Assembly (NCBI GenBank): GCA_011601165.1
Contig: GCA_011601165.1_4547.1
Origin: Escherichia coli
GTDB taxonomy: Bacteria; Pseudomonadota; Gammaproteobacteria; Enterobacterales; Enterobacteriaceae
Strand: one strand, 5' to 3'
Length of the DNA: 40,001 nucleotides
Part shown: piece by piece, positions 19,280 through 25,076 of the stretch
Position numbering within the stretch: the stretch's first letter is position 1
Layout: each line of letters opens with the position of its first letter
Made by a program: the position numbers and the translations under genes
Notes under the pieces: model-generated
The model's input: the letters and a program-made list of their open reading frames with translations, nothing else
Database searches by the model: none
Told to the model about the DNA's origin: nothing

Positions 19280-19320
19280 AATCATGAAGGCCACGACTTT
19301 TAGTCATGACCTTTAGTCTA
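19280..19320 (-). promoter_or_regulatory. conserved RNA hairpin, candidate RNase III site (R1.1 equivalent)
   Basis: mRNA AAGGTCATGACTAAAAGTCGTGGCCTT. Confidence 0.5.
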
Positions 19321-19341
19321 ATCCTATAGTGATAGTTTAGG
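19319..19341 (-). promoter_or_regulatory. phage RNAP promoter (phi1.1 equivalent)
   Basis: CCTAAACTATCACTATAGGAT. Confidence 0.8.
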
Positions 19342-19631: not shown

Positions 19632-22313
19632 TTAAGCGAATGCAAAGTCTGAAGACAAGATGTCTTCGATATTCAGTTTACCTTTCTTCGGAAGCTCAGG
19701 CAGCTTGTCGCGTTGGCTCTCATGAAGTTGGTATTCAAACTGCTCGTAGAAGTCAAGCAGCACATCGTTGTCGCGGTAGGTCTCGACCATCGTCTCACGG
19801 ACACCCCGGAACAGATACTCAGCGTCAGCCGGGATGGTCCCGAAGCTATCGTGAATCACTGCGAACGACATCACGCCATACTTACGGTGAGTGTGGACTA
19901 CAGTCTTGCGGAGGTGGCTACCATCTTGTGAGTGGACGAAGTTCGGGCTAATGCCTGACTCCTGCTTGTGCTTATCCAGCTCTTTCTTCGTGCCTTTATT
20001 GACTGTAGGCTGAAGGTTGAATGACCCTAAGAACATCAGGTTCAGACGCGTGGTATCCTTCTTGCGGTATTCCTGCCATACCGGGAACCCATCAGGTGTG
20101 ATCCAGTGTACCGGAAGGCAAGGCTTCAGGATTTCGCCAGTCTTCTTGTCCTTCACTTCAGCAGCCAGCAGCTTGGCAGCACCTTGAAGCCACTTCATCG
20201 CGTCAACCGCAGCAACTACGGTCACGCTCACAGCTTCCCAAATCATCTTAGCCATGAAGCGAGACGCTTGGCTTGGCTCGGTGAACATAGCGCCAGACCC
20301 TGAGTCAATCGCTGGCATTACGATGTCCTCATAAACTTGGTCTGCGAAACCATACTCTTTCGACCCGTAGGCCAGAGTCATGACTGAACGCTTAGTGACC
20401 TTGCGTGACATGCCGTAAGTCAGCCACTGCCGGGCCAGCTCTCGTGTCCCCAGCTTGAGACGTTCGGTAATCTCACCAGTTTTCTTGTCCTCGTGAGTTA
20501 CCATCTCGTTGTCCGTGCCGTTAACCAGCAGGACTTTAAGCTTCTCCTCAATGCGGTCAGATACGATGCGGTAGATGTCTTGGACCTTACCGGAAGGCGT
20601 CAGGTTTACTGCATGTCCACCGATGTGATCACGCAGCATCGCGCTGAAGTGCTGAATCCCAGAGCAGGACCCATCGAATGCTATCGGCAGCGAGCAGGAG
20701 TAAGACAATCCGTGGTGCATTACGCCAGCATACTCGAAGCAGAACGCTAGGAAGCAGAACGGAGAGTCTAACTTGCCCCACCACTCAATGCTGTCCATCG
20801 GTGCCTTAGCAGTAGCCATGATGTTGTCGTGGTTGTCTTCCACCCACTTGATGCGCTCCTCGAAGGTGACTTTATCAATACCCGCACAGTTTGCACCGTG
20901 GACCTTCAGCCATTTGAAACCGTCAGCACCAATAGGCTTACCGACTGCCAGAGTAAGGAGACCCTTCTGCATGTCGTTACCCTGAGGGTTGAACATCGGC
21001 ACAGCGTAGACGCGACCGCGCCAGTCCATGTTGTACGGGAACCAGATGGCCTTGAACTGGGAGAACTTGTTCGCCTGGTTAACGATAAAGCTCAGTGACA
21101 ATCTGCGTGACTGCCGGGCCTTCTCTCGGCGGTAGATACCAGCAGCAGCCTTCTTCCATGCCTTCAGTTCTTCCTCGGTCTCACCCGCATAGTCTTCAGG
21201 CTTCAGCGGCTCCATCTGAGGGATGTCGTCAATAGGCGTGTTGTTTAGCTTCTCGACCGTGTTCACCACTTCCAGCACCTTCTTGTTTACCTTCCAAGGT
21301 GTATTCTGGATGATGTTCACAGCGTCATAGACTTCAGGCATGTACACGTCCTCGTAACGCGCCACCGCAGACTTAGACCCTAAGCGAATCAGTGGTAGCG
21401 GTCTGCGACCTTTGGCCCAGTACCCACCGCCTACAACACCAGTCCACGGCTTAGGTGGAACGACGCAAGGCTGGTATACTGGAGCGATGCCCGCAAGGCT
21501 GAAGCCTCGTTGTGCCATCTTCTTGACCCAGAAGTCTGACAGGTGGATCATCTCGACGTCAGCCGCTGCATTGCCAGCACCGTAACGCGTAAGCTCGACC
21601 AGTTGTGTAGACTGAATGACAATCTCAAGCATCTTGATTCCAACGTGGACAGCCTCGGTCGGACTCCAAGTCCCCCACGCATCTTCTAGTTGACCTTGCT
21701 CCAGCATGGACGTCTCAACCGCTTGCATGTAGGCTTTCTTGTAGGATGCCCCTGCTCGCTTGTTCAGGTTATCAGCTATCGCCTTCTTGAAGTGCTCCTT
21801 CTCCTTGTCACGAATGCGGCCGAATCGGATTTCATCCTCAAGTGTGCGGCCTATCGCGGAGGCCATCGGTGTAATCGGTATCCCTTCAGGCTTGATCAGC
21901 TTGGAGAGGATGACCTTCAGTATGATAACCGCAGCAGACTCACAGGAGATGCGCAGAGAGCGGTCCTTTACGGCCTTCTCTTCAGTGCTCAACATGGTGA
22001 ATGCTACGCTAGGACGAGAGGTTGACAGCTTCCCGTCTGGACCTTCATGCCACTCCTTGACAGCTTGCGCAATCTTAGGTACCAGAGTCTGCATCAAAGG
22101 CTTGGCGACCTGATTGTCTGCCAGTTCCCCGCGCTCAGTCTGTCGCTCAAGGTTCTTGATGAAACGTCGCTCGCCTTCAGTGTATGCCTCATGCTCAAGC
22201 TGAAGCTGTTTGACTGCAAGGTCTTGCCCGTAGTGGTCAGCCAGCAGGTTAAACGGCTCAATAGCGTTAGATACATCAGAGAAGTCGTGTTTGTCAATGG
22301 AGATGACGCTCAT
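19632..22313 (-). CDS. 1: single-subunit DNA-directed RNA polymerase (T7 gp1)
   Basis: 893 aa; …HDSFGT…, C-terminus …DFAFA; colinear with T7 RNAP as recalled; recognition loop region differs from T7. Confidence 0.97.
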   Translation of the reverse strand: MSVISIDKHDFSDVSNAIEPFNLLADHYGQDLAVKQLQLEHEAYTEGERRFIKNLERQTERGELADNQVAKPLMQTLVPKIAQAVKEWHEGPDGKLSTSRPSVAFTMLSTEEKAVKDRSLRISCESAAVIILKVILSKLIKPEGIPITPMASAIGRTLEDEIRFGRIRDKEKEHFKKAIADNLNKRAGASYKKAYMQAVETSMLEQGQLEDAWGTWSPTEAVHVGIKMLEIVIQSTQLVELTRYGAGNAAADVEMIHLSDFWVKKMAQRGFSLAGIAPVYQPCVVPPKPWTGVVGGGYWAKGRRPLPLIRLGSKSAVARYEDVYMPEVYDAVNIIQNTPWKVNKKVLEVVNTVEKLNNTPIDDIPQMEPLKPEDYAGETEEELKAWKKAAAGIYRREKARQSRRLSLSFIVNQANKFSQFKAIWFPYNMDWRGRVYAVPMFNPQGNDMQKGLLTLAVGKPIGADGFKWLKVHGANCAGIDKVTFEERIKWVEDNHDNIMATAKAPMDSIEWWGKLDSPFCFLAFCFEYAGVMHHGLSYSCSLPIAFDGSCSGIQHFSAMLRDHIGGHAVNLTPSGKVQDIYRIVSDRIEEKLKVLLVNGTDNEMVTHEDKKTGEITERLKLGTRELARQWLTYGMSRKVTKRSVMTLAYGSKEYGFADQVYEDIVMPAIDSGSGAMFTEPSQASRFMAKMIWEAVSVTVVAAVDAMKWLQGAAKLLAAEVKDKKTGEILKPCLPVHWITPDGFPVWQEYRKKDTTRLNLMFLGSFNLQPTVNKGTKKELDKHKQESGISPNFVHSQDGSHLRKTVVHTHRKYGVMSFAVIHDSFGTIPADAEYLFRGVRETMVETYRDNDVLLDFYEQFEYQLHESQRDKLPELPKKGKLNIEDILSSDFAFA

Positions 22314-22382
22314 ACTTAAAGTCCTTGTTATTAGTCTTTCACTTAAAGTCTCTTTGGTCTTTCACTTGGAGTCTTAGACCTT

Positions 22383-22405
22383 TAGTCCTATAGTGATAGT
22401 TAAGT
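22383..22405 (-). promoter_or_regulatory. phage RNAP promoter directly upstream of the RNAP gene
   Basis: ACTTAACTATCACTATAGGACTA; about 75 nt before the gene 1 ATG. Confidence 0.7.
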
Positions 22406-22671
22406 CAGAAACATTTACATATCAGTGGGTTAGCGTGAAGATGACTGAAGTCACCATGAGTCGTGTGCTTGATGGTTGATCGTTGGTCTATCGCCTTCCA
22501 GCCTGAGACCAGAAGTTTACCATCTTCGGTGATCGGTCGTCCACCATACGCCAGACGCAGCAGTTCGGACTTATGGCCCTCAGCTATCATGCGGCGCTGT
22601 AAGAACATGTCACGCTGCATCTGCTCCACACGGCTACGGCTAGATGGTTTGTTAGTGTATGCGGTTTTCAT
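22405..22671 (-). CDS. hypothetical early protein, 88 aa
   Basis: ORF coupled to upstream gene (ATGA overlap). Confidence 0.55.
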   Translation of the reverse strand: MKTAYTNKPSSRSRVEQMQRDMFLQRRMIAEGHKSELLRLAYGGRPITEDGKLLVSGWKAIDQRSTIKHTTHGDFSHLHANPLICKCF

Positions 22672-24225: not shown

Positions 24226-24343
24226 AGTCGCTATCGGCGCACATTAAGAGTTTATCCAGATTTTTAAAGAGCATTCGCATTGGCTGTCGTCGCCGTGCTA
24301 GCCTGTTTCAGTGTTAGGCTTCACCGTTGTTTCAGTGTGGTAC

Positions 24344-24780: not shown

Positions 24781-24875
24781 GTCTCTGACTGTAGGTGTTG
24801 GTGTCTTATGGTTGAGACAGTAGGTTAGTGAGGCTGTAGGTTGTGACTTATGGTTGAGACTTATGGTTATACAGA
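24781..24875. repeat. left-end short direct repeat array
   Basis: CTTATGGTTGAGAC twice plus CTGTAGG units on plus strand. Confidence 0.6.
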
Positions 24876-24876
24876 T

Positions 24877-25076
24877 AGGGACTCGGAGAAGACCAATAGT
24901 CCCGACCTATCGTCCCGACCTCCAGCCATAGCCTCAACCTATCGTTGACCTGAAGGCTTGACAGCTGGTCAAACCTTATGATAGACTGGAGGTATAGACC
25001 GAAGGTCTAGGGGTAGGGCCTTTGGTCGGACTGAAGGAGGGCCTATGGGGAGACTTGAGGTTCTTGAACTGTGAGA
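24877..25076. repeat. candidate direct terminal repeat, single collapsed copy (T7-like genome terminus)
   Basis: minus strand TCTCACAGT…CCCCATAGG… and …TCCCTATCTGT resemble the T7 terminal-repeat start and end as recalled; boundaries inferred. Confidence 0.3.

What the first reader, a model, noticed from the sequence alone, without database searches (positions are those of the whole stretch)
22334..22367. 11-bp direct repeat in the RNAP gene leader
GTCTTTCACTT occurs twice, 23 bp apart, between the promoter and the gene 1 start (mRNA sense AAGTGAAAGAC). It could be a protein- or RNA-binding element regulating polymerase synthesis.
Basis: seen in the sequence. Interest (0 to 1): 0.2.

Follow-up and report, generated by a model that had tools for sequence, protein, structure and literature searches.

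The report
Repeated leader module before polymerase gene
The 11-base repeat is real and lies in the 75-nt untranslated leader between a genuine phage promoter and the RNA polymerase gene of a K1F-like phage, but it is one visible piece of a larger, old, conserved array of reiterated ribosome-binding-site-like units, with no evidence yet for a dedicated regulator.

Summary
Confirmed: GTCTTTCACTT (mRNA sense AAGUGAAAGAC) occurs exactly at 22334-22344 and 22357-22367, 23 nt apart. It lies inside the 75-nt leader between a perfect phage promoter (+1 at about 22388, minus strand) and the gene 1 ATG (22313). The window is a K1F-like Kayfunavirus.

The 11-mer is the junction of a larger pattern. A 21-nt repeat is 86% identical. 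There are four GACTnnAAGT units, with (A/G)GAC anchors about every 14 nt. In effect the gene's own SD-spacer-start module is reiterated in tandem. The repeat is non-random given the leader's composition (P about 0.003, and lower for the extended forms). Both copies are invariant in about 45 close relatives and align in register with phage CR8, a different genus.

Cautions: every promoter leader in these phages is equally conserved. The leader has no stable or covarying RNA structure, so it is not a T7-type RNase III site. It shows no special complementarity to 16S rRNA, and the ribosome site is no more open than in shuffles. The small upstream ORFs are not conserved.

Best reading (about 0.4): a cis-acting, unstructured, purine-rich mRNA leader of duplicated ribosome-binding modules that tunes translation or stability of an RNAP message with a weak Shine-Dalgarno. 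An operator for a trans-acting factor is not excluded. Modest interest.

The parts
22383..22405 (-). Phage RNAP promoter 'phi1' (-17..+6; core ACTATCACTATAGGA at 22386-22400; inferred +1 = G at 22388). The stop codon of the upstream gene (22405-22407) abuts or overlaps its upstream edge.
   Evidence: Perfect match to an 11-copy minus-strand consensus. The orthologous site is annotated 'promoter phi' in EcoDS1 and 'predicted promoter' in CR8. The +1 is inferred from the T7 convention, not mapped.
22314..22388 (-). 75-nt 5' untranslated leader of gene 1 on phi1 transcripts. It is 64% A+T and 65% purine in mRNA sense, and C occurs almost only within GAC. (A/G)GAC anchors have their C at +4, +18, +32, +41, +55 and +68.
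   Evidence: Diversity pi=0.0147 in 17 genomes against 0.143 at gene 1 third codon positions.
22357..22367 (-). Distal copy of the 11-mer (mRNA AAGUGAAAGAC, transcript +22..+32).
   Evidence: Invariant in group A. Altered to CAGUUAAAGAC in group C and GAC>GAU in one metagenomic contig.
22334..22344 (-). Proximal copy of the 11-mer (mRNA AAGUGAAAGAC, transcript +45..+55), 7 nt upstream of the SD.
   Evidence: Invariant in groups A and C. It falls in the block that aligns with the T7 gene 1.1 leader.
22331..22374 (-). Extended tandem repeat: two 21-nt copies (22354-22374 and 22331-22351), 86% identical, period 23. With the gene 1 start this gives three tandem modules: GACUCCAAGUGAAAGACCAAAGA / GACUUUAAGUGAAAGACUAAUAACAAG / GACUUUAAGUAUG...
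   Evidence: families D1 and D2; 0/3000 shuffles reach 18/21.
22311..22326 (-). True translation-initiation region: SD AAGGA (22322-22326), spacer CUUUAAGU, AUG (22311-22313). The SD is weak.
   Evidence: SD:anti-SD duplex is -5.1 kcal/mol against a genome median of -8.7, rank 43 of 46 in EcoDS1. The 14-mer GGACTTTAAGTATG is identical to the T7 gene 1.1 start region.
22342..22354 (-). Pseudo-initiation module: AAGAG (SD-like) + ACUUUAA + GUG. GUG AAA GAC UAA UAA is a 3-codon mini-ORF. An upstream GUG (22363-22365) opens an 8-codon ORF whose UGA overlaps this GUG (GUGA).
   Evidence: Read from the sequence. SD-like duplex is only -2.9 kcal/mol. The first GUG is lost in group C and both are lost in L023. 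In group B the first GUG is in frame with gene 1. So the mini-ORFs are not conserved.
22376..22388 (-). Possible weak 5'-terminal hairpin GGACU-AAA-GGUCU (-2.4 kcal/mol). It competes with GGUCU...AGACC (+9..+33, -6.0 kcal/mol), which uses the distal 11-mer as its 3' arm.
   Evidence: Only single-sided changes are compatible with pairing, and there are no compensatory double changes.
19632..22313 (-). Gene 1, T7-type single-subunit RNA polymerase (893 aa), the gene served by the leader.

Best explanation
The 11-mer is part of a cis-acting mRNA leader, not a free-standing regulatory site. The 75-nt 5'UTR made from the phage promoter in front of gene 1 is built from degenerate tandem copies of the gene's own ribosome-binding module: a purine-rich SD-like run, then GACUUUAAGU, then a start codon. 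The last copy is the real initiation region. The upstream copies have decayed into SD-like pseudo-sites followed by GUG.

Proposed mechanism (inferred, not shown): the array gives a long, purine-rich, essentially unstructured platform. On it, 30S subunits (and possibly S1) can dock and transfer to a start site whose Shine-Dalgarno is weak. Occupancy by ribosomes would also protect the fast-made, poorly coupled phage-RNAP transcript from endonucleases. The array would thereby set the translation yield of the autocatalytic phi1 -> RNAP loop.

Shown: the promoter, the repeat architecture, its age and conservation, the lack of stable structure, the weak SD, and the kinship of the proximal module with the T7 gene 1.1 initiation region. 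Inferred: ribosome loading or stabilisation as the selected function.
For: (1) Architecture. Three tandem modules end in GUG, GUG and AUG. Each is preceded by an AAGAC/AGAGAC/AAGGAC run plus a (U/C)(U/C)(U/C)AAGU spacer. The window's only cluster of three or more GACYNNARG words within 60 nt is here, with four copies. This is non-random given leader composition.

(2) The proximal 45 nt, which include copy 2, align with the T7 gene 1.1 leader. The score is 44 against 16.9+/-2.9 in shuffles, and it is the top hit of 5314 windows across T7. BLAST also finds gene 1.1 leaders of phages 13a and Vi06.

(3) ACTTTAAG is a T7-group initiation-region word. It occurs 11 times on the sense strand against 3 antisense in T7. 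Seven copies lie 9-34 nt upstream of the starts of genes 1.1, 6.5, 7.3, 9, 10 and 17. In gene 10 it lies within the A/U-rich enhancer, which stimulates translation even when moved relative to the SD (PMC8748333).

(4) The gene 1 SD is among the weakest in the genome, rank 43 of 46, so leader context plausibly matters.

(5) There is no stable fold: z=-0.1 to -0.3, against z about -3 for bona fide R1.1-type hairpins.

(6) Purifying selection. Leader pi=0.015, against 0.143 at neighbouring synonymous sites. The leader is near-invariant in 16 metagenomic contigs and 173 phage records. Both copies are retained in register in CR8.

(7) Conservation across phages of many enterobacterial hosts fits a conserved host partner such as the ribosome.
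Against: There is no direct evidence of ribosome binding or enhancement.

TIR accessibility of the native leader (0.56) is not better than with a shuffled upstream 60 nt (0.52+/-0.08; 36% of shuffles are as open).

The repeat units show no 16S complementarity beyond shuffles.

In EcoDS1, ACTTTAAG is not a general RBS word, unlike in T7.

The pseudo-SDs are very weak, at -2.9 and -1.6 kcal/mol.

Nucleotide-level invariance is stronger than a generic 'unstructured A-rich spacer' would require.

All phi leaders are similarly conserved, so conservation does not discriminate between this and other functions, or a role as a conserved recombination linker.
Confidence: 0.4

Rival explanations
1. Historical duplication with only generic function. 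Replication slippage reiterated a 14-23-nt piece of the initiation region. The leader is kept because all promoter-proximal 5'UTRs in these phages are constrained as a block (promoter clearance, length, low structure, or conserved linkers for homologous recombination between mosaic modules). The repeat as such does nothing specific.
For: All 11 phi leaders are 95-100% identical between the window and EcoDS1, generally above adjacent third-codon identity. The leader sits at the border between a hypervariable early module (gp0.38 pi=0.11-0.25, indels) and conserved gene 1. Copy spacing varies between lineages at 14, 23 and 28 nt. The distal copy and the upstream GACUUUAAGU are the parts that vary. 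Accessibility is no better than in shuffles.
Against: Two copies are retained in register across genera and are invariant in about 45 sequences, while synonymous sites 15 nt away vary. A neutral duplicate should have decayed.
Confidence: 0.27
2. Operator for a trans-acting factor. The two AAGUGAAAGAC copies (or the six GAC-anchored units) bind a phage or host protein, on the mRNA or on the DNA. Binding would cap the positive feedback created by a phage promoter in front of the phage RNAP gene.
For: A phage promoter upstream of its own RNAP gives an autocatalytic loop that needs a brake. A published precedent is LUZ100 phi1, and in temperate T7-like phages MarR sites flank the RNAP promoter (PMC10134795). 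Nucleotide-level invariance of both copies. The two-copy arrangement persists with variable spacing, which an RNA-binding dimer would tolerate. The units are quasi-palindromic (GACTT.AAGTC-like).
Against: No candidate binder was found. Neighbouring early proteins have no known function and are far more variable than the leader. The motif occurs nowhere else in the genome. The spacing of 23 bp, variable between lineages, is poor for a DNA-binding dimer. T7 lysozyme already provides the known brake on RNAP (established T7 biology). Equal conservation of other leaders.
Confidence: 0.13
3. Alternative-pairing riboregulator. The transcript's 5' end (ACUnAAGGUC) can pair either with the SD-AUG spacer GACUUUAAGU, which would mask the RBS, or with the identical upstream GACUUUAAGU or the distal 11-mer as decoys. 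The repeat would then decide whether phi1 transcripts are translated.
For: RNAalifold's only consensus helix is 5' end:spacer, with 9 pairs present in all 13 leader variants. The ensemble shows competing helices 1-13, 9-33 and 40-48:67-75, each with p about 0.3-0.55. The read-through transcript has a less open TIR, 0.41 against 0.56.
Against: Energies are tiny: consensus -3.95 kcal/mol and hairpins -2.4 to -6. There are no compensatory changes. Natural variants break pairs: GACUCUAAGU in L008, L013 and L021, an insertion in L009, and G>U in L048 and L058. Fold z-scores are about 0.
Confidence: 0.08
4. DNA-level role as a T7-type replication origin: a phage promoter followed by an AT-rich, purine-skewed tract in which transcripts prime DNA synthesis.
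For: The arrangement of promoter plus a 64% A+T, 65% purine leader resembles the T7 phi1.1B and phiOL regions. Six 5'-GTC-3' primase cores lie on the complementary strand. EcoDS1 has no phiOL, so phi1 is the leftmost phage promoter.
Against: Once the shared RBS is removed, similarity to the T7 origin and phiOL regions is no better than to random T7 windows. AT-richness is matched by other leaders: phi1.1, phi1.6 and phi6.5 are 63-65%. Only one of the GTC sites has the canonical (G/T)(G/T)GTC context.
Confidence: 0.06
5. RNase III processing site, the positional equivalent of T7 R1 just upstream of gene 1.
For: Same position as T7 R1. The leader starts with the same GACUAAAGGUC...GACUnnAAGU as the phage's own phi1.1/R1.1-like site.
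Against: There is no roughly 20-bp hairpin. z=-0.1, against -2.9 for the window's R1.1-like site, -3.2 for T7 R1.1 and -1.6 for T7 R1. No Rfam hit. No covariation.
Confidence: 0.03

Closest known systems
T7 gene 1.1 leader / translation-initiation region (downstream of promoter phi1.1B)
   Same: A phage promoter is followed by an A/T-rich leader of about 80 nt. GGACTTTAAGTATG is identical. The 45-nt block AGAGA(C)TTTAA.T.AAAGA...GGACTTTAAGTATG aligns. T7 also has two ACTTTAAG words in that leader.
   Different: It serves gene 1.1, not gene 1. T7 has no exact 11-mer duplication. Upstream of the RBS block the similarity is not significant. In T7 the region doubles as the primary origin, which is untested here.
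T7 gene 10 leader (g10RBS) A/U-rich translational enhancer ('epsilon', UUAACUUUA)
   Same: It shares the octamer ACUUUAAG next to a Shine-Dalgarno, in an unstructured phage-RNAP-made leader. The enhancer works when repositioned (PMC8748333).
   Different: Here the word lies in the SD-AUG spacer and again 27 nt upstream, not directly 5' of the SD. The full 9-mer is not present. No activity data exist. No 16S complementarity beyond chance.
T7 R1 RNase III site upstream of gene 1 (also K11, Ninurta, PZL-Ah1)
   Same: It occupies the same intergenic position immediately before gene 1.
   Different: Those phages have the kinase gene, then a sigma70-type promoter and a stable hairpin. K1F-like phages and CR8 have gp0.38, then a phage promoter and the unstructured repeat array.
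Phage-specific promoter directly upstream of the phage RNAP gene (LUZ100 phi1; MarR-flanked RNAP promoters of temperate T7-like phages)
   Same: The same autocatalytic wiring. The precedent shows that such promoters can carry flanking operator sites (PMC10134795).
   Different: K1F-like phages are lytic, and no MarR-like gene or binder was identified. The repeats lie downstream in the transcribed leader rather than flanking the promoter.

Membership tests
T7-type phage RNAP promoter + 5'UTR (transcribed leader of a class II-like gene) | Match to the phage's own promoter consensus, correctly oriented, immediately upstream of the gene | tested here: met
   Perfect 15/15 match. It is one of 11 minus-strand copies, with 0/100 shuffles reaching that count. 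The orthologous site is annotated in EcoDS1 and CR8.
T7-type phage RNAP promoter + 5'UTR (transcribed leader of a class II-like gene) | Transcription start mapped at +1 in vivo or in vitro | not testable with these tools
   No transcript-mapping data for Kayfunavirus were found.
T7-group translational enhancer (g10 'epsilon'/Enh-like leader element) | A/U-rich element UUAACUUUA (core ACUUUA) close to the SD in an unstructured leader | tested here: inconclusive
   ACUUUAAG is present twice but the full 9-mer is absent. Its position differs: in the spacer and 27 nt upstream. The leader is unstructured.
T7-group translational enhancer (g10 'epsilon'/Enh-like leader element) | Raises translation of the downstream gene | not testable with these tools
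   This needs reporter fusions. In silico TIR accessibility is not above shuffles.
T7-type RNase III processing site (R1/R1.1 class) | Stable imperfect hairpin of about 20 bp with an internal loop | tested here: not met
   Leader z=-0.1 to -0.3, and the best local hairpin is -6 kcal/mol. Genuine sites give z about -3.
T7-type RNase III processing site (R1/R1.1 class) | Structure conserved, with covariation, among relatives | tested here: not met
   RNAalifold gives -3.95 kcal/mol with 0 compensatory pairs. No Rfam hit.
Direct-repeat operator / iteron-type protein-binding site | Two or more copies of a specific motif, conserved in sequence among relatives | tested here: met
Direct-repeat operator / iteron-type protein-binding site | Fixed, helically phased spacing and an identified cognate binding protein | tested here: not met
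   Spacing is 14, 23 or 28 nt in different lineages. No candidate binder was found among the neighbouring genes. Actual binding is not testable here.
Upstream mini-ORF / two-cistron translational coupling | SD + start codon + in-frame stop close to the downstream SD, conserved among relatives | tested here: not met
   GUG AAA GAC UAA UAA exists in groups A and C. The first GUG is lost in group C and both are lost in L023. Frames differ in group B and CR8. The pseudo-SD is -2.9 kcal/mol.
T7 primary-origin-type element (phage promoter + AT-rich tract) | Phage promoter followed by an exceptionally AT-rich region, homologous to T7 ori | tested here: inconclusive
   The promoter is present and the tract is 64% AT (top 1%). 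Other leaders are equal in AT content, and homology disappears without the RBS. Origin activity is not testable.

The most novel reading that the evidence does not exclude
The six (A/G)GAC-anchored units, including the two AAGUGAAAGAC copies, form a sequence-specific binding platform on the RNAP mRNA or its DNA. The binder would be a conserved factor, such as the phage RNAP itself, another conserved phage protein, or a host RNA-binding protein. It would act as an autogenous brake or timer on the self-amplifying phi1 -> gene 1 loop. That would be a translational or transcriptional operator not described for T7-like phages.
Probability: 0.12. Interest if true: 0.6.

Novelty: new variant of a known kind. 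Interest (0 to 1): 0.22.

Why it matters
K1F-like phages and CR8 place a phage promoter directly in front of the phage RNA polymerase gene, so RNAP synthesis is self-amplifying. How that loop is dosed is not known. The leader is the only sequence between promoter and gene, it carries a weak Shine-Dalgarno, and it is kept almost base-for-base in hundreds of phages. If the reiterated modules set the translation or stability of this message, they are a compact natural part for tuning single-subunit RNAP expression. K1F RNAP is already used as an orthogonal polymerase (PMC11880802). If instead they bind a factor, that would be a new control point in T7-type development. As the evidence stands, this is an ordinary conserved 5'UTR feature with an unusual repeat anatomy.

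Tried and rejected
(1) RNase III site or stable RNA structure. Folding of the leader alone and with upstream sequence gives z about 0. No Rfam family matches. RNAalifold finds one weak helix with no covariation.

(2) Homology of the whole leader to the AT-rich tracts of the T7 primary origin and phiOL. This looked convincing by eye. A genome-wide scan of T7 without the RBS gives no better score than random windows.

(3) Exceptional AT-richness as an origin signature. The leader is matched by other leaders.

(4) Base pairing of the repeat units with 16S rRNA. The best duplexes are no better than shuffles.

(5) Selection for an open RBS. The native leader is not better than shuffled upstream sequence.

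(6) A genome-wide repeated element. The 11-mer and GACTTTAAGT occur only in this leader. The third EcoDS1 copy is a coding coincidence.

(7) Conserved leader peptides. The mini-ORFs are not conserved across lineages.

(8) Leader conservation as proof of a special regulatory site. This is undermined by equal conservation of all phi leaders.

(9) A regulator encoded next door. PHROG hits for the neighbouring small early proteins are all 'unknown function'.

(10) Literature. The K1F genome paper and the Chen & Schneider promoter paper are not held. No paper found discusses this leader.

(11) Tandem Repeats Finder reports nothing, because the array is too short and degenerate.

Full report
**Identity of the window.** The sequence is a K1F-like T7-group phage (genus Kayfunavirus). 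The 500 bp around the finding are 90-94% identical to TH20, RDN8.1, vB_EcoP_F and K1F. Genes lie on the minus strand. Gene 1, the single-subunit RNA polymerase of 893 aa, is 19632-22313. The upstream ORF, 22405-22671, belongs to a family of unknown function (phrog_7066) and is called gp0.38 in K1F, EcoDS1 and CR8.

**Checking the observation.** GTCTTTCACTT occurs exactly at 22334-22344 and 22357-22367. In mRNA sense it reads AAGUGAAAGAC.

- ACTATCACTATAGG(A/G) occurs 11 times on the minus strand, against about 1 expected, with 0/100 shuffles reaching that count.
- The copy at 22386-22400 is a perfect match.
- The curated EcoDS1 record annotates the orthologous 23 bp as a 'phi' promoter 70 bp before gene 1. 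CR8 carries a predicted promoter at the same place.
- By the T7 convention, +1 is the G at 22388. That gives a 75-nt leader, 22314-22388.

**Is the repeat more than chance?**
- Judged genome-wide, one exact 11-mer repeated within 50 nt is unremarkable. Expected numbers are 0.4-1.3 per 40 kb, and the window has about five such loci.
- Judged against dinucleotide shuffles of the A-rich leader itself, it is not chance. P(exact repeat of at least 11) = 0.0027. A 21-nt repeat with at least 18 matches occurred in 0/3000 shuffles, and four GACYNNARG words also occurred in 0/3000.

**The anatomy is larger than reported.** The repeat extends to 21 nt at 86% identity (22331-22351 and 22354-22374). It belongs to a family of four GACTnnAAGT units. 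An alignment of 13 distinct leader variants shows that the invariant columns are a series of (A/G)GAC anchors about 14 nt apart, with the C at +4, +18, +32, +41, +55 and +68.

Read as RNA, the 3' two-thirds of the leader is three tandem modules:
- GACUCCAAGUGAAAGACCAAAGA
- GACUUUAAGUGAAAGACUAAUAACAAG
- GACUUUAAGUAUG... (the start of gene 1)

So the gene's own SD-spacer-start module (CAAGGACUUUAAGUAUG) is reiterated upstream as AAAGAGACUUUAAGUG.

The word GACYNNARG is about 3-fold enriched genome-wide on both strands. Even so, this leader is the only place with three or more copies within 60 nt. The 11-mer and GACTTTAAGT occur nowhere else in the window.

**Conservation.** In 17 genomes of the K1F/EcoDS1 group:
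- Leader diversity is pi=0.0147.
- Gene 1 codon positions 1, 2 and 3 give 0.017, 0.009 and 0.143.
- gp0.38 gives 0.11-0.25.
- Both 11-mers are invariant, and the few variable sites lie between them.

Sixteen metagenomic contigs add only scattered single changes. The 85-nt leader is at least 95% identical in 173 of 248 phage records, from hosts including Escherichia, Salmonella, Citrobacter, Klebsiella and Morganella.

More diverged lineages keep two AGU(G/U)nAAGAC-type copies at other spacings. The spacing is 14 nt in the Dev2-like group and in L023, and 23 nt in the GW1/SFP20 group. In CR8 (genus Caroctavirus, RNAP N-terminus about 65-69% identical) the two copies, ACTTTAAGTTTAAAGAC and ACTTTAAGTAAATGAC, lie 28 nt apart and align in register with those of the window. 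So the duplication is old, and both copies have been retained.

**A control that tempers this.** All eleven promoter-to-ATG leaders are 95-100% identical between the window and EcoDS1. That is generally above the third-codon identity of the adjacent genes. Conservation therefore shows that the leader is functional as a block. It does not single out the repeat as a regulatory site.

**What the leader is not.**
- Not a T7-type RNase III site, although it occupies the position of T7 R1. T7, K11, Ninurta and PZL-Ah1 have the kinase gene, then a sigma70-type promoter and a stable hairpin there. This leader folds no better than shuffles (z=-0.1 to -0.3). The phage's own R1.1-like site after phi1.1 and T7 R1.1 give z about -3.
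- No Rfam match.
- RNAalifold finds only a weak helix between the 5' end and the SD-AUG spacer (-3.95 kcal/mol, no compensatory changes). Natural variants break candidate pairs.
- The units have no 16S rRNA complementarity beyond shuffles.
- The RBS is no more accessible than with shuffled upstream sequence.
- The two mini-ORFs, GUG-AAA-GAC-CAA-AGA-GAC-UUU-AAG-UGA and GUG-AAA-GAC-UAA-UAA, are not conserved outside the closest groups.
- Resemblance to the AT-rich tracts of the T7 origin and phiOL disappears once the shared RBS is removed. AT-richness is shared with other leaders.

**What it resembles.** The proximal 45 nt, including copy 2, align significantly with the T7 gene 1.1 leader. GGACTTTAAGTATG is identical, the score is 44 against 16.9+/-2.9, and this is the best of 5314 T7 windows.

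ACTTTAAG is a characteristic T7 initiation-region word. It occurs 11 times on the sense strand against 3 antisense, and seven copies lie within 34 nt of a start, including genes 9, 10 and 17. It is part of the gene 10 leader, whose A/U-rich enhancer boosts translation even when repositioned (PMC8748333).

The gene 1 Shine-Dalgarno is among the weakest in the genome, at -5.1 against a median of -8.7 kcal/mol, rank 43 of 46.

A phage promoter in front of the RNAP gene creates a positive feedback loop. This has been discussed for LUZ100, where related temperate phages flank that promoter with MarR operators (PMC10134795).

**Interpretation.**
- Best-supported reading (confidence about 0.4): the repeat is part of a cis-acting, unstructured, purine-rich 5'UTR built by old tandem reiteration of the ribosome-binding module. 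It is kept because it sets ribosome loading and/or stability of the self-amplifying RNAP message. The architecture, age, conservation, lack of structure, weak SD and kinship with T7 initiation regions are shown. The loading or stability mechanism is inferred.

**Novelty and score.** The promoter is already annotated. I found no description of the repeat array in the accessible literature. It is a new variant of a known kind, a T7-group mRNA leader or initiation region, and of modest interest unless a binder or a strong phenotype is found.

Noticed in passing
window 19287-19313 (-), downstream of the phage promoter at 19322-19336: A stable hairpin, AAGGUCAUGACUAAAAGUCGUGGCCUU (z=-2.9), is clearly homologous to the T7 R1.1 RNase III site after phi1.1A. 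Its transcript starts with the same GACUAAAGGUC...GACUnnAAGU words as the gene 1 leader. This suggests promoter+leader cassettes share ancestry.
   Followed up: partly
window 24805-24870 and 24871-24880 (-): A cluster of short direct repeats (sense AACCATAAGTC / ACCTACAG units) lies next to CCCTATCTGT, the T7-type concatemer-junction pause motif. The window therefore runs across the joined genome ends, with the left end near 25050, and holds only one copy of the terminal repeat (no exact 25-mer repeats). It is a circularly permuted single-unit assembly.
   Followed up: partly
window 22351-22362 (-), transcript +27..+38: The 12-mer AAGACCAAAGAG, made of the end of the distal copy plus the spacer, is identical in sense to E. 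coli 16S rRNA nt 189-200. About 0.006 such matches are expected by chance. It is not conserved in all relatives (GACCGAAGAG variants, and absent in group B), so it is probably coincidence.
   Followed up: partly
window 24304-24338 (+ coordinates; sense ACACTGAAACA x2, 24 nt apart): Another exact 11-mer direct repeat sits just downstream of a sigma70-type early promoter (TTGACA-N17-TACGAT), upstream of the ocr-like gene. T7 has similar CCACATGAAAC...CACACTGAAAG words after promoter A3.
   Followed up: no
window 22322-22326 (-); EcoDS1 (L038) 2336: The RNAP gene has one of the weakest Shine-Dalgarno sequences of the genome (AAGGA, -5.1 kcal/mol; rank 43 of 46 EcoDS1 genes).
   Followed up: yes
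whole window, both strands: The word GAC[TC]NNA[AG]G is about 3-fold over-represented on both strands (67 and 64 copies against 21.6+/-5.2 expected). Six of the 11 phage promoters are preceded by GAC(Y)(Y)TAA. This echoes the CCTAAAGAC repeats at the left end of T7.
   Followed up: partly
relatives: PV615262.1, MT350292.1, PQ520054.1: Records labelled Acinetobacter phage vB_Aba_01KA and Enterococcus phages EFA-1 and IME_EF3 carry a K1F-type gene 1 region at 76-93% identity. A Gram-positive host for a Kayfunavirus is implausible, so these are likely mislabelled or contaminated.
   Followed up: no
relatives H39-H60; window 22405-22671: The gp0.38 gene just upstream is hypervariable (pi 0.11-0.25). 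Many relatives carry a roughly 66-bp indel there, and it is 132 aa in EcoDS1 against 88 aa here. This contrasts sharply with the invariant promoter and leader that begin at its stop codon, marking a mosaic boundary.
   Followed up: partly
L048 and L058 (metagenomic leaders): The same G>T change (AAGACU to AAUACU, in the second GAC anchor at +16..+18) appears in two different leader lineages, both from low-coverage contigs. It is either a recurrent polymorphism or sequencing error.
   Followed up: no
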